42,969 nucleotides of DNA, taken from contig JAHIOW010000027.1 of NCBI GenBank assembly GCA_018895075.1, positions 1-42,969 on the forward strand, given 5' to 3'. This document shows, one piece after another, positions 3,001-9,000 of this stretch; within the stretch, counting starts at the first letter, position 1; each line of letters begins with the position of its first letter. The stretch comes from Candidatus Omnitrophota bacterium (GTDB taxonomy: Bacteria; Omnitrophota; Gorgyraeia; Gygaellales; Profunditerraquicolaceae). The position numbers are program-made.

Positions 3001-6000
3001 TTTGAACCAAAGCCCGTAGCAATCGCGGGGATATTTTTACCTTGAAAGAATGTTATGGTGGTTGCGCCTTCAGAACCTCTTATAGCTGGCTTTACGTTTA
3101 TTTTTCTCATGGCGTTTGTTAGATAGCTTATCAAGGGATGATTTTTATTGATGCAGTAAGGTTTTTGCATCCCTTCTATCTCTATCTTTGCCGCATTTTG
3201 CGGCATCCCGCTTTTGCGGGAGAATCTTTTAATATGTTTTTGAATTACGCCTTTTATTTCTTTTAAAATTTTTCTTGCTGACATACCTGGTAAAAATCTA
3301 AAATCTAATTCAAATTCACACCAGTCTGCTACCACATTAACCTTATCTCCGCCTTTTATGGTTCCGATATTTAGTGTAGGGGCCTTAAGATATTTATTTT
3401 TTGTATAAGTAAATTTATAGGCCTTTAGTTCCTGGAGTATACCTAAGGCAATATCTATGGCATTTATGCCTTGCCAGGGATAAGCACCGTGTGCCCTCCT
3501 GCCTTGTATCTTGACCTTAAGATGCAGGAGCCCTTTCTGGGTAATAATTATACCGAAATCATCAGAGTCTAAGACCACTGCCGCCTCAGGGGTTATTATA
3601 CCTTTATCCAATAAAGGAACCAGGCCTAAACTAGAGCCGGCCTCTTCATCAGCAGTGGCTGCAAAAACTAAAGTATAATCCAAAATAATCTTATTTTCAA
3701 TCAGGCTGTTTATTGCCTCCAAGCCACAGGCAAGATTCCCTTTACAATCAGTGGCGCCTAATCCGTAAATTTTACCCTGGGATATCTTGCCTAAAAATGG
3801 CCGGATACGCCAATTTTGCCCAGCAGGTATAGTATCCAAGTGAGGCGTGATAAACAGAGAATGTTTCTTATCTCTTCCCTCTATAGTGGCTACTACATTG
3901 CAACGCCTTCTTTTAAACTCATAAATTTTTGTTTTTATTCCTAATCCTCTAAGATAATCCTGCACAAAATGGGCAATCCGGGATTCATCGCCGGGTGGAT
4001 TTTGTGAATCTATACGGATTAATTTCTGGACAAGTTTTATCAGCCGTATTCTATTTATCATGACTAATCTTAAAAATTATGGCTTACGCCAAACCAAACC
4101 TGCGGGTCTTTTTTGGGCTCATTGAGGGCCTGGGCAACATCTAATCTTAAGATAAATTTTTCTAAAAATGAACCCAGGGTAAGATGAAGGCGCAAGCCCA
4201 ATCCCAGATCCTTTTTGAAACTACGGTCATTAAAACTCCTAAACCAGGCCTTACCCGCATCAAAGAAGCCTACGCCCTGAATTTTATCTATTGAGACAAG
4301 GTTATCTAAAAATCTTAAATCCAAATTATTTAATATATCCTGGCGATATTCTATATTGAACATAACTGCCTGTGAGCCATTAATAGTTTTGTATCCGTAA
4401 CCCCTGATGCCCTTTTCACCGCCCAGCTGAAATAAGCCTTTATCTGCCGGAAATCCTAAGCCAAACTTCATCCTCGTTGCCAATTTTTGTTTAGGCGTAA
4501 GCTTTAGATAACGCGTTAATTCTGGGCTAAAACGCCAGAAATAATTCTGACCTCCTAAAACATGTTCTGCATTTTCAAGCGTAGAGATAAACTTCCAGCC
4601 ATAAGCAGGATCGGGATATGTGCCGTAACGGCCAAATTTTAAATTTATCCCAAAAATAGATTCCTCCTCTTGCCGGTAGGCAAGATTCCTGACGTCCTCA
4701 AGGCCGCCTAAGGTCAAGGCACTCTTGAAATCTCTGTCACGGATAAAATAAACAGTGATGTGGTCATTCTCATCAAGCAGGCCATAACTTACCGGCCAGA
4801 GGTCTCTACGCAGGTATAATTTAACTCCATCCTGGTCATTTCTACTGTGTAGATCATTGTAATCAAACGCCTCAATTCCCCATTTTAACAATTTTCCTGA
4901 TAGATGCTGCTGCTGAAAGCCAAATGTATTTTTGATTCTTTCTTCGTTGAAATTATAAGTATGGGAAATATAGAGTAAATTATCCTGGGGTTTCTGTAAC
5001 GACAATTTTACGCCAAAATCAGAACCGTCTGCTTGCGGGCCAAATACAAAACTATAAGCATCATCCTCTAGGAATACCGGAATCTCGTATAGAGGATAAT
5101 ACAGAATAACCGGCCTAAAATCTACCTGGCGCCTCCAATGATTATTTGTCCTATCTAGCTCAAGGATGCGTTTTTGGGGATCAAGCCGGGCGGATTTTAT
5201 TTTCTTAGAGTTATCAATTAAAAACTCTTTACTTTTTTCTGCGCCATTCCAAAGGTAATTTAACTGGCTGCCATCTTCTAATTCCACTTCCAATTCCACC
5301 GGCATAGGAATATCGCCGATATTTTCTACAACTATTTTATTTTGATAAACGCCTTTTATGGCATAGTCGCAAATCTTGGTGGTTTTCAGCCAATCATCAA
5401 AAAACCAATTTAAATCTGTCTTTGCCTCTTGGCTGGCTATTTTCTCTAAATCTGCAACAAAGATATTTTTAAATTTAAATTCATTAAAATACCTTTGCGT
5501 CAACCTCTTAAAGGCATCCTCGCCCATAACGTAGTTTAACATGTCCACAATCTTAGAACCCTTGCCATAAGTAATAGAAAAGATAGAACTGGGTTCTTTA
5601 AAGCTGGAGAGTGCCCCTAATACAGGCCGGTCAATGCCGTTTTTGGCTACGAAGCTATAGCGGTCTAATTGGGCACGGACAAAAGAAAAATTAGGGATTA
5701 ACCATTGCAATGCCCTAGGCAAAACCATGACCCCAACATCCTGTCCATATTTAGTCTCTAGGTATTTTAACAACCAGTAGGAATTAAACCCTTCATCAAG
5801 AAACATCTCTTTATATTCATCAGAACCCACAATATTATAGAACCACTGATGGCCTGTTTCATGTGAAATGAGAAAATCAAAATAGCGATGAAGGAAACCC
5901 GGTAGTTTATAGGCGCGCGTATCAATAAATACCAGACACGAAGATTGCATTCCGCCAAACCCTAAGTAACTGGGGACAATACTAAATTCGGGATACGGAT

Positions 6001-9000
6001 ATTCAACAAAATGTTGACTATAGAATTTCATTAGCCCTTGAGCATGCCGAGCAGCCTCCTGTGCTCTTTGTTCGTCGCCACTCAGATAATAAGATTTAAT
6101 TTTGGTTTTACCGTCATCTACCGCATAAACCAATAAACTTTTAGACACGCTTAGGCTAAAATCCCTCACCGGTAATACGGTCTCTAAACTTAAAGTCTTG
6201 GTTCCGTCAGGGTTGAGGGTTTCTTCTTTTAAAGAGCCGCTTGAGGCAACCTTTTCGTTTTGATCAACAGTAAACTTAACTTTATAGTAAGAGGCATCGC
6301 TAATATATGGCTGATGATAAATGTAAAATGGATAATTATGCCAACTGTTTTTATCAAAAACGGATAATATCGGATACCAGCGCGCCAGTGTAATAATATC
6401 TTTGTGCCAACCGAATCTGCCGTAAGCATGAGGTATATCTAATTGGAAATCTATATCAATCTCACAAGACTCTCCTGGGCTAAGGGCAGAATCCAGATTT
6501 ACCTTAAGGATGGTCTGGTCTTCTCCTTCAATCATATAAACCAGCGGCCCTTTAGAGTAAGAAATATGCCTTATTTTTAAATCCCCGCCTTGGAACCCTC
6601 CAGGAAAAAGATCTATTTTAAAATAAGCTGCATACCGATAAAGAAGCCTGATTTCTTTATCGGTATATCTGCGGTGGGGATAGATGTGGAAATAGATTTC
6701 GTTTAATTCCTGATTAGAATTATTAGTGAATTTTACTTTTTGTTCGGCGCTTATCTTATGATTATTAGTATCGAGGTGTGCATTGATTTCGTATCGGGGC
6801 GGCTCTGAAGCAAAGCTAAGGCAAAAGGAAAAAGTAAAAAGGCAAAAGTACAAGGTAAAACTAAAAAGTTTTAAATTTTTAGTTGTGGTTTTGCGTTTTA
6901 CGTTTTTACTTTTGAGTTTAAGGGGCAGATATCGCATTTGGGTTTATTTTTTAAACAGACCTCTTTACCTAACCTTACCAAGAGCGCATGGTATTCATTA
7001 AATAATTTTACATTGGATTTAAGATTTTGCATAAACAAATTTTGTATTTCACCGTAGCTGGCATTTTTTTTAACCAAACGGTGTCTTAAAAGTATCCTTC
7101 TGGTATATGCATCAACTACAAACACCGGTTTTTTTAAGGCATATAGCAATATAGAATCTGCGGTCTCCGGGCCAATACCATTTATAGAAAGTAACTGTAG
7201 GCGTAAATCCCGGGTATTTATTAGAAGAATCTTTTGAATATTCCCCTGGTAAGACTTAAATAAAAAATTCAAAAACGCCTTTAATCTTTGCGCCTTAATA
7301 TTGAAATACCCGGTTGGCTTTATCAGCGTGGACAATCTTTTCTTGGATAGCCTATAGAGTTTACGCTGCTCTAATAATTTGTGCTTTCTTAGATTATTGA
7401 TTGCCTTTTCTACATTAAGCCAGTTTGTATTTTGGGTAAGAATTGCGCCTACAATAACTTCAAACGGGGTATCAGCCGGCCACCAGTGTTGTGGGCCAAA
7501 ATGAGAATATAACTTGCGATAGATTAAATCGAGCTTGCCGCTCATTCCTGAAGTTCTAAAGGATTATAGTCATAATAGGCAAAAAGGGTATAGGTAGTGC
7601 CGGACACAGAACCCGTAAATTTACCCTTAGGCGTCATCCAACCGTGCCCGGTATCTACGGCATCCTGGGTGGCATAAGGAAGGCAACTTTCCCCTTGGCC
7701 TGAAGGCGAAGAACTGGAGATAATCATATTGCTCAACTCTGCTAGATATTCATCGGCTTTATTTTCGTAAGACCTGGCCTTAGCAAGCATGCCTTTTTCA
7801 TGGTAAAAATCTGCCACGATCTTAAAGGCTATAACCATCTGGGCGGTCCATTCCGAAGAAACTACGCCACCTCTTGGGCTATGTCTCTGGGAAGCAAAAT
7901 CAAAGCCTTTGATTTTTATAGTTTGGCCTTCGGGACGAGTATAGAGAACCTCGACTGCGCAGTTCTGTTCGGCAAATTCTATAATCCTATCTGGATTCAT
8001 CCCTAAGTCCTCTAGTTTGTCCGGGCCAATAGCTATAATGGAATAGGCATAGGTATCGGTGGCAATAGTAGAATCTCCCCGGCCGCGTTTAACAGGTATA
8101 TCTAGGCTATCATAAGTATGCTGGACTAACCAGGTTAATACCTTATCGCTTGCCTGCTGATAGACTAATTGGCCAGTAATCTTATACAACATATTAAAAA
8201 ATGCATAGGCATCCAGATTATGCTCTGTGGAATACCAACTTAGATCTGGACCGCCGCAAATACCACCATCTTTATCTTGATCCTGTAAAGAGATTATGCC
8301 TCCAGCAATCTCTTGTGCTAACCGAAGATAGCTATGATCTTGCGTTATTTCGGTATATTGTAATATCGCTATCCCCAGCCAGATATTAGGACCGCTATGT
8401 ATAGCATACTCCGCAGGAGAACCATCGTTAGCAGAGTAGGCATTAAGAAATAATTTATCTATTCTTTTGGCTTTTTTGTCAAAAAAATCCATTATTTTTC
8501 TCGCTCGCTGAAAATCACCAAAATTTGTAAAGGCGCAAGCCACCAGGGCTTGATCGTAAATTAATGCCCACTCAGCAATATCGCTGTCACCCTCAAAACT
8601 TATTACTAGACCTGTGCGTGGACTCTGTTGAACCTTTAACCACTGATACATCTTATCTAAATTTGCCTTTTCAAGATGCACCTTCCTTTTATCCAAGCGT
8701 AGTAATTCTTCGGCCACGCTAGCTTCTTTGCCTTGAACAGCGATTAGCTGTTCTTGTAGAAAGGTTTTCTCCTGAGTTAGTTTCTCAATAAAAACATTAA
8801 GTTCTTCTATTTTTTTAGCTGCCTTAATCTCTTCTAATTTGCTTATATTTCCTAAATCCGCCTTTTCGCCATTAACATTCTGAATCTGGAATTGCAAACC
8901 TTGAATCTTGATTTGTAAGTCCTCCTTTGCTTTGCTTGTTGCTTTTATCTTCTGTTTAGCAATACTGGATTCCTGGAGGATATTAATCAGTTGCGTAACC

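What a model noticed while it worked through the whole genome (the two positions that open the first line are those of the whole stretch)
4070..6937. M1 aminopeptidase-Omp85 fusion
g00165 is a signal-peptide-bearing M1 zinc aminopeptidase fused to an Omp85 barrel without POTRA domains, distinct from the genome's BamA. It is a self-anchoring outer-membrane peptidase in the manner of type Vd secretion, displaying a protease where patatin-Omp85 proteins display a lipase. This would be a new Omp85 subfamily and a candidate tool for feeding on host peptides.
Evidence so far: Pfam Peptidase_M1 (298-516, E 2e-25) and Omp85 (710-949, E 1e-12); HETGH...E zinc motif, IRGY loop-6 motif and C-terminal F present. 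281 proteins at E<=1e-100; 119 of the 120 listed carry both domains at about 865-1000 aa, named sources all Omnitrophota or unclassified. 2 of 41 phylum genomes, absent from G021.
(Added by a program. Inside this text positions count along the whole contig: contig position 1 is position 1 of the stretch shown here. "Call 12" and the like, gene names such as g00115 and contig names such as C1 are that model's own, and its searches are not shown. The text may have been shortened before it was handed on; [...] marks where a part breaks off. The agent that wrote the report below was given it as the finding of a first reader that could run no searches.)

Follow-up and report, generated by a model that had tools for sequence, protein, structure and literature searches.

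The report
Zinc peptidase capped by Omp85 barrel
This gene joins a zinc protein-cutting enzyme to an outer-membrane barrel in one conserved protein, and the enzyme is predicted to hang inside the cell envelope with the barrel as its lid, not to be displayed on the surface as first proposed, a design apparently shared by several bacterial phyla and never tested.

Summary
The fusion is real: one 955-residue frame with a signal-like start, M1 peptidase domains I-III (intact HEXXH-X18-E) and a 16-strand Omp85 barrel without POTRA, beside a separate BamA. The scan noted this family before on six other genomes. The type Vd reading is not supported: PlpD's enzyme domain is now known to stay periplasmic, and in the model (pTM 0.91) the catalytic domain sits where POTRA domains sit, while the barrel's periplasmic turns take the place of helical domain IV, the lid of M1 enzymes. 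'Aminopeptidase' is unsafe: the amine-binding GXMEN glutamate is glutamine in 110 of 118 relatives. The gene is patchy (23 of 251 phylum genomes). Related fusions occur in Planctomycetota, a Nitrospirota branch keeps the design but lacks the zinc motif, and a large Bacteroidota cluster has the same predicted shape. A 2014 survey already listed aminopeptidase-like domains on WD40-Omp85 proteins, so this is a new variant of known enzyme-barrel fusions. Most likely a periplasm-facing peptide-turnover enzyme; the bold reading, a pore feeding outside peptides straight into the active site, is open (0.2).

The parts
4070..6937 (-). Whole gene, M1-type zinc peptidase fused to an Omp85 barrel, 955 aa; start overlaps the end of the upstream endonuclease III gene
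6809..6937 (-). Likely Sec signal peptide, residues 1-43 (inferred from pattern)
   Evidence: sequence; hydrophobic stretch in 111 of 117 relatives
6119..6808 (-). M1 domain I beta-sandwich, residues about 44-273; invariant H208 where GxMEY-type M1 relatives have an acidic residue
   Evidence: model; structure matches; alignment
5369..6118 (-). M1 catalytic domain II, residues about 274-523, with Y457 invariant in 118 of 118
5942..5956 (-). GGMQS, the altered GXMEN exopeptidase motif (Gln in 110 of 118, Glu in 8 of 118)
5792..5863 (-). Zinc motif HETGH-X18-E (H359, E360, H363, E382), invariant in 118 of 118
5135..5368 (-). M1 domain III, Ig-like beta-sandwich, residues about 524-601
   Evidence: model; match to tricorn factor F3
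5057..5134 (-). 26-residue linker, residues 602-627; too short for a POTRA domain
4073..5056 (-). 16-strand Omp85 barrel, residues 628-955, ending in F
4763..4801 (-). Long periplasmic turn 3 (residues 713-725), the most conserved of the 15 connecting segments
4373..4450 (-). Extracellular loop 6 (residues 830-855) with IRGY
4157..4168 (-). FLEK at periplasmic turn 7 (E926 in 117 of 118, K/R927 in 112 of 118), overlaying domain IV of solved M1 enzymes in the model

Best explanation
One chain carries an intact M1-type zinc peptidase and a 16-strand Omp85 barrel, and the peptidase is predicted to hang on the periplasmic face of the outer membrane with the barrel serving as its lid, where it likely cuts peptides and loose polypeptide ends in the periplasm. 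Steps: (1) shown in sequence: fusion, zinc ligands, catalytic Glu and Tyr, barrel motifs. (2) inferred from established routes: Sec export, cleavage near A43, insertion of the barrel by the genome's own BamA through the terminal F. (3) predicted: domains I-III fold in the periplasm and pack under the barrel; periplasmic turns 3, 4, 6 and 7 occupy the site of helical domain IV, so the barrel closes the catalytic cleft, and the conserved E926-K927 of turn 7 would contact substrate or the cleft rim. (4) inferred: with the GXMEN glutamate changed to glutamine and no acid at the domain I position, the enzyme would depend less on a free amino end than PepN does. (5) inferred, weakest: the substrates are peptides that reach the periplasm and fragments of envelope proteins, with products taken up by inner-membrane carriers. 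The barrel would act as anchor and lid, not as an insertase or exporter.
For: Model pLDDT 91, pTM 0.91 for the whole chain. Strand 1 starts on the periplasmic side after a 26-residue linker with no long helix to thread the pore. Superposed on Omp85/TpsB structures, catalytic-domain residues (model 360-388) fall on the POTRA region in 9 of 18 such rows, for example TamA 375 on 197 and BamA 376 on 355. Superposed on M1 structures (best Z 36.3, rmsd 3.0, 473 aligned), the alignment runs into the barrel in 41 of 50 rows and ends in a periplasmic turn in 41 of 41, on domain IV residues such as PepN 783-786 and F3 718. PlpD precedent for a periplasmic enzyme on an Omp85 barrel. Role of the GAMEN glutamate and of domain IV from the PSA paper. 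An acid at turn 7 goes with the zinc motif in 31 of 34 selected fusions and is absent in 13 of 14 without it. BamA-type Omp85 is present separately in 23 of 23 carriers; TamB was found in only 8 of 23 carriers, and not in this genome.
Against: All geometry comes from one predicted model, read indirectly through first and last aligned residues, which are sparse and shared among related structures; no coordinates were available. Periplasmic turns as a set are not more conserved than outer loops (p 0.56; 0.21 without loop 6). The 13 zinc-less proteins are one clade, so the turn 7 pattern is one event. A whole branch keeps the design without HEXXH (59 of 60), which says that cutting is not the only selected function. 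No substrate evidence; neighbours are housekeeping genes that do not travel with the fusion.
Confidence: 0.55

Rival explanations
1. Import coupled to cutting: the barrel is a gated pore that passes outside peptides through its lumen straight into the catalytic chamber, and the products go to the Opp/Dpp-type ABC importer. The zinc-less branch would be the same channel with a binding cap.
For: The barrel's periplasmic rim lies over the cleft in the model. A family 5 peptide-binding protein was found in 21 of 22 other carriers; within the window's family in 5 of 5 carriers against 4 of 24 non-carriers (Fisher p 0.001, overstated because kin are not independent). Long, variable, low-confidence loop 4 could gate.
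Against: This genome has no family 5 binding protein or Opp ATPase tail match (88% complete), and the usual site behind tpiA-secG holds other genes inside an unbroken contig. The binding protein is common without the fusion (families f7 14 of 14, f8 10 of 12, f26 8 of 8 have it, none has the fusion). The loop 6 motif and its strand 13 partner, which close BamA and TamA to the outside, are kept.
Confidence: 0.2
2. Accessory insertase or quality-control station: the barrel still opens laterally as BamA and TamA do, and the peptidase domain binds or degrades stalled outer-membrane protein clients, like a fused BepA.
For: Closest folds are TamA (Z 23.0), BamA (22.5) and Sam50 (21.8). Strand 16 is short in the model with a conserved Gly (114 of 118) and low confidence at the end. 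Zinc-less relatives keep the cap, fitting a binding role.
Against: No POTRA; the cap covers the periplasmic mouth; the gene is missing from most genomes searched; TamB does not follow it (8 of 23 carriers, 6 of 28 non-carriers); the loop 6 motif decays in divergent members G165 and G043.
Confidence: 0.13
3. One reading: the barrel exports its own peptidase to the cell surface (type Vd) to digest host peptides.
For: Enzyme N-terminal to an Omp85 barrel, as in PlpD; older literature proposed export for PlpD. Structure prediction could miss a translocated state.
Against: PlpD's domain was found only in the periplasm. A folded three-domain enzyme of about 560 residues would have to cross without energy; no POTRA, no beta-helix, linker of 26 residues; the model docks the enzyme on periplasmic turns.
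Confidence: 0.07

Closest known systems
PlpD / FplA, patatin-like Omp85 proteins (formerly type Vd)
   Same: Hydrolase N-terminal to a 16-strand Omp85 barrel, in addition to BamA; enzyme on the periplasmic side (shown for PlpD in PMC11116518, predicted here).
   Different: Zinc peptidase instead of lipase; no POTRA; PlpD is a dimer, the state here is untested.
WD40-like Omp85 subfamily (Heinz and Lithgow 2014)
   Same: POTRA-less Omp85 with a clan MA HEXXH domain; the survey's Table S3 gives aminopeptidase structures (1z5h, 4kxd, 3qnf) among the best hits for it, and such proteins are among the nearest barrels.
   Different: They have a short clan MA domain plus a beta-propeller; this protein has full M1 domains I-III and no propeller; the peptidase profile barely touches them (best E 0.0026).
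M1 aminopeptidases (tricorn factor F3, PepN, ERAP1, PSA)
   Same: Domains I-III, HEXXH-X18-E, catalytic Tyr; Z 36.3 to F3.
   Different: Helical domain IV is replaced by a membrane barrel; GXMEN reads GGxQS.
TamA / BamA
   Same: Closest barrel folds (Z 23.0 and 22.5 against 14.0 for the best non-Omp85 barrel); loop 6 motif, strand 13 FxD, terminal F.
   Different: No POTRA, no TamB neighbour, patchy, mouth capped by the enzyme.
Bacteroidota about 950-aa 'aminopeptidase' clusters (ESM Atlas)
   Same: Whole-length predicted structure match, TM 0.74-0.75 over residues about 24-953; one cluster has 2614 members. Two proteins of this type have a C-terminal part that looks Omp85-like by features.
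   Different: They keep GxMEY; their barrel shows no sequence match to this one. Model against model only; I found no paper on them.
Metallo-Omp85 subfamily
   Same: Metal enzyme on a POTRA-less Omp85 barrel; a periplasmic quality-control role was proposed.
   Different: Its domain is PF00149, a calcineurin-like phosphoesterase fold, unrelated to M1.

Membership tests
Omp85 superfamily barrel | 16-strand C-terminal barrel | tested here: met
   16 strands in both models; top 18 rows of the wide search are Omp85/TpsB
Omp85 superfamily barrel | Loop 6 (V/L)RG(Y/F) motif and strand 13 FxD partner | tested here: met
   R 117 of 118, G 118 of 118; D893 nearly invariant
Omp85 superfamily barrel | Pfam PF01103 over cut-off and terminal aromatic residue | tested here: met
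   48.4 bits against 24; F in 118 of 118; NCBIfam subfamily models all below cut-off
BamA / TamA | One or more POTRA domains before the barrel | tested here: not met
   26-residue linker between domain III and strand 1; no POTRA match
BamA / TamA | Insertase activity through a lateral gate | not testable with these tools
   short strand 16 and conserved Gly only
M1 aminopeptidase | HEXXH-X18-E zinc motif and catalytic Tyr | tested here: met
   invariant in 118 of 118
M1 aminopeptidase | Domain I-II-III fold | tested here: met
   Z 36.3, rmsd 3.0, 473 aligned to F3
M1 aminopeptidase | GXMEN exopeptidase motif with Glu | tested here: not met
   GGMQS here; Gln 110 of 118, Glu 8 of 118, Met not conserved; divergent members keep Glu
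M1 aminopeptidase | Helical domain IV (absent in some solved members) | tested here: not met
   all-beta barrel follows domain III
M1 aminopeptidase | Removal of N-terminal residues | not testable with these tools
   needs an assay
PL-Omp85 / type Vd | Patatin domain plus one POTRA | tested here: not met
PL-Omp85 / type Vd | Passenger exported to the surface | not testable with these tools
   model argues against it; no longer held for PlpD
WD40-like Omp85 | Beta-propeller before the barrel | tested here: not met
   no room and no propeller in the model; no PD40 match
Metallo-Omp85 | PF00149 domain | tested here: not met
   N-terminal part is fully accounted for by the M1 fold; family definition

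The most novel reading that the evidence does not exclude
An Omp85 barrel has been turned into a peptide intake gate plumbed directly into a protease: it replaces the lid domain of an M1 enzyme, admits outside peptides through its lumen and supplies residues to the active-site chamber, in an old family that spans Omnitrophota, Planctomycetota, Nitrospirota and probably thousands of Bacteroidota proteins now labelled plain aminopeptidases.
Probability: 0.2. Interest if true: 0.85.

Novelty: new variant of a known kind. Interest (0 to 1): 0.52.

Why it matters
It adds an architecture missing from the standard Omp85 survey and gives a testable case of a membrane barrel standing in for an enzyme's lid domain. 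It bears on the open question of what non-insertase Omp85 proteins do, with natural contrasts on hand: Gln against Glu forms of the substrate motif and a zinc-less branch. If the Bacteroidota look-alikes are true members, a very common protein class is mis-annotated as soluble. It does not show a new secretion route or a host-feeding tool.

Tried and rejected
Conservation of periplasmic turns against outer loops: no difference. Neighbour genes as partners: the TPR-transglutaminase protein (17 of 23 carriers, 21 of 28 non-carriers), the 650-aa protein (16 of 23, 26 of 28), the M48 peptidase (14 of 23, 24 of 28) and TamB (8 of 23, 6 of 28) do not follow the fusion; non-carriers were mostly from the window's family, not a random set. 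The 19 loci of the zinc-less branch show no conserved partner. Opp co-occurrence looked strong in 51 chosen genomes but shrank against the phylum background and fails in this genome. Promoter-like sites were at chance level, 56 against 55.9. No RNA holder listed. Plasmid search gave 38 records, none covering 80%; the three opened are barrel-less M1 genes. No solved chain matching both halves was listed, which does not exclude one. Profile comparison of this barrel with two Bacteroidota-type proteins gave nothing. A second 'paralogue' in the loci was a clustering artefact, a small TPR gene. A 620-aa M1 in G248 is a separate GGMEF-type enzyme, not a truncated fusion. The tree is the quick one; the careful search did not finish. 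Paper searches that found no study of this fusion; subscription journals are largely not held, and Doyle and Bernstein 2022 was not read.
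Full report
Observation. The window holds one open frame at 4070-6937 on the minus strand, 955 residues. Pfam gives Peptidase_M1 at 298-516 and Omp85 at 710-949, both over cut-off; NCBIfam shows the same two parts below its subfamily cut-offs. The genome has a separate 802-residue BamA-type gene and no other M1 match. A homologue search found 387 proteins at E up to 1e-10; 119 of the 120 listed carry both families. Contigs from three other groundwater runs show no indel or joint and two pieces bridge the junction. The fusion is not an artefact.

Anatomy. An AlphaFold2 model of the mature chain from 118 sequences has pLDDT 91 and pTM 0.91 (model number plus 43 gives protein number). 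It shows M1 domains I, II and III, a 26-residue linker and 16 strands. The peptidase part matches tricorn factor F3 at Z 36.3, rmsd 3.0 over 473 residues. The barrel alone matches TamA at Z 23.0, BamA 22.5 and Sam50 21.8, against 14.0 for the best other barrel (Foldseek agrees). Loop 6 carries LRG(Y/F), strand 13 carries the FxD partner and the chain ends in F in 118 of 118. There is no POTRA and no helical domain IV.

Which side. I had no coordinates, so I read the geometry from superpositions. Against Omp85 and TpsB structures, the alignment of the whole model begins at catalytic-domain residues 360-388 lying on the region before the barrel, that is on POTRA, in 9 of 18 rows; the other 9 begin at the linker or barrel, and several of those chains are barrel-only. 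Against M1 structures, 41 of 50 alignments run into the barrel and all 41 end within two residues of a periplasmic turn, none in an outer loop, although outer loops offer more positions (138 against 90). The partners are domain IV residues: PepN 783-786, ERAP1 about 835, F3 718. The PSA paper (bioRxiv 10.1101/2023.05.30.542994; passages and one section read) describes domain IV as closing over the active site and F3 Arg721 as touching the catalytic domain; a docking passage in PMC9736874 places Arg783 beside the ligand (that this is E. coli PepN numbering is recalled). These rows are related structures and give only end points, so they are one line of evidence from one model. They agree with topology: strand 1 starts in the periplasm and the linker has no long helix to thread the pore. 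They also agree with PlpD, whose enzyme domain was found only in the periplasm (PMC11116518; abstract, introduction and discussion read).

What kind of peptidase. The zinc ligands, the catalytic Glu and Y457 are invariant in 118 of 118. The GXMEN motif aligns with GGMQS: Gln in 110 of 118, Glu in 8, and the Met position varies. The Glu of this motif, with a second Glu from domain I, binds the substrate's amino end in PSA. The nearest GxMEY-type relatives have an acid in domain I where this family has HQP (register uncertain by one). So the main clade has probably lost both anchors; divergent Omnitrophota and Planctomycetota forms keep one. Relaxed specificity is an inference; lower activity is also possible. 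Turn 7 carries E926 (117 of 118) and K/R927 (112 of 118), and among 48 selected fusions an acid there goes with the zinc motif in 31 of 34 and is missing in 13 of 14 without it (two Bacteroidota-type rows left out of the count; the 13 are one clade). Against this reading, periplasmic turns as a set are no more conserved than outer loops.

Range. In 251 genomes of the phylum the barrel profile found 21, all in the window's class and all in frames of 939-1082 residues; two more divergent fusions came from the M1 search. All 23 also have a BamA-type gene. Of 80 genome loci, 50 are titled Omnitrophota, 25 Planctomycetales or Planctomycetia, 5 other or unclassified; most share one gene order, so many of the 25 are probably mislabelled Omnitrophota (inference). 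The order is a housekeeping block (endonuclease III in 48 of 81 loci, an aminotransferase in 43, a small TPR gene in 43), which suggests inheritance with repeated loss. A barrel-profile search of 1.84 billion representatives reached true Gemmataceae and Planctomycetota fusions, a branch named Nitrospirota and Bdellovibrionota that aligns over the whole length (probability 100) but lacks HEXXH in 59 of 60 (an invariant His nearby leaves a rearranged site possible), and WD40-Omp85 proteins with a clan MA HEXXH domain. The ESM Atlas adds Myxococcota clusters by features and, by structure, Bacteroidota 'aminopeptidase' clusters of about 950 residues at TM 0.74-0.75 over nearly the whole chain, one with 2614 members. 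Their barrel is Omp85-like only by features and not by profile, so they are a lead.

Function. A family 5 peptide-binding protein, part of an Opp/Dpp-type operon in the loci opened, was found in 21 of 22 other carriers and, in the window's family, in 5 of 5 carriers against 4 of 24 non-carriers. But it is common in families with no fusion, and this genome lacks it at the usual site in an unbroken contig. It is a weak hint for peptide nutrition. TamB and the neighbouring genes do not follow the fusion. I therefore commit to a periplasm-facing peptidase anchored and capped by its barrel, serving peptide turnover (0.55), ahead of import coupled to cutting (0.2), an accessory insertase or quality-control role (0.13) and surface display (0.07). 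The side of the membrane alone I put at about 0.85.

Comparison with print. Heinz and Lithgow 2014 (PMC4104836; parts 2 and 3 of 7 of the text, passages, supplementary files 2 and 3 read, all four files searched) list ten subfamilies; PF01433 does not occur, the Metallo group is PF00149, but Table S3 gives aminopeptidase structures as hits for the WD40-like group, and PMC11358297 (passages) speaks of WD40 and peptidase domains. PMC13067283 (passages) adds nothing on it. Searches listed no study of an M1-Omp85 fusion; most subscription journals are not held and the 2022 review by Doyle and Bernstein was not read. bioRxiv supplements are closed and could not be checked. Six earlier notes of this scan describe the same family and lean periplasmic; they are not independent support.

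Verdict. Real and apparently unstudied; a new variant of enzyme-Omp85 fusions rather than a new secretion system. Interest 0.52.

Noticed in passing
window 37433-39910 (-): TIGR00375-family protein (PHP-type, below cut-off) interrupted by an intein with a LAGLIDADG-like domain.
   Followed up: no
window 7542-9494 (-): 650-aa protein with weak PilZ-like start, membrane helix, coiled coil and a glycoside-hydrolase-like end; found in 42 of 51 genomes searched. Its C-terminal part also matches giant open frames of 16310, 54392 and 68606 codons in G061, G236 and G222.
   Followed up: partly
window 9497-12010 (-): TPR plus DUF3857 plus transglutaminase-like protein with a lipoprotein-like start, in 38 of 51 genomes; does not follow the fusion.
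   Followed up: partly
L056:3053-6253; G223:C30: In L056 the small upstream TPR gene is in one open frame with the peptidase-barrel gene (1067 aa); G223 has a 1082-codon frame that was not opened.
   Followed up: no
P0230 family, loci L088-L106: Nitrospirota-named branch with full M1 domains and Omp85 barrel but no HEXXH; usually a stand-alone gene; annotated only as BamA/TamA family.
   Followed up: partly
P0168: A Planctomycetota-type fusion that has lost HEXXH separately from the Nitrospirota branch.
   Followed up: no
P0267: Omp85 barrel with a lectin-like Laminin_G_3 domain and HEAT repeats, another architecture not seen in the 2014 table.
   Followed up: no
window 168-905 (-): 245-aa protein with no Pfam match, conserved in 13 of 81 loci; resembles ApbE-like/UPF0280 proteins by recall.
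   Followed up: no
window 906-1922 and 11898-14306 (-): hypE, hypD and a hypF C-terminal part are split around the block that holds the fusion.
   Followed up: no
G000:C58:2220-3410: A transporter-like gene (MFS-like by recall) stands behind secG where relatives have the Opp/Dpp-type operon.
   Followed up: partly
L004, L006, L015, L038 and others: Large reverse-strand genes with Hint-domain neighbours lie a few genes downstream of the fusion in 9 loci.
   Followed up: no
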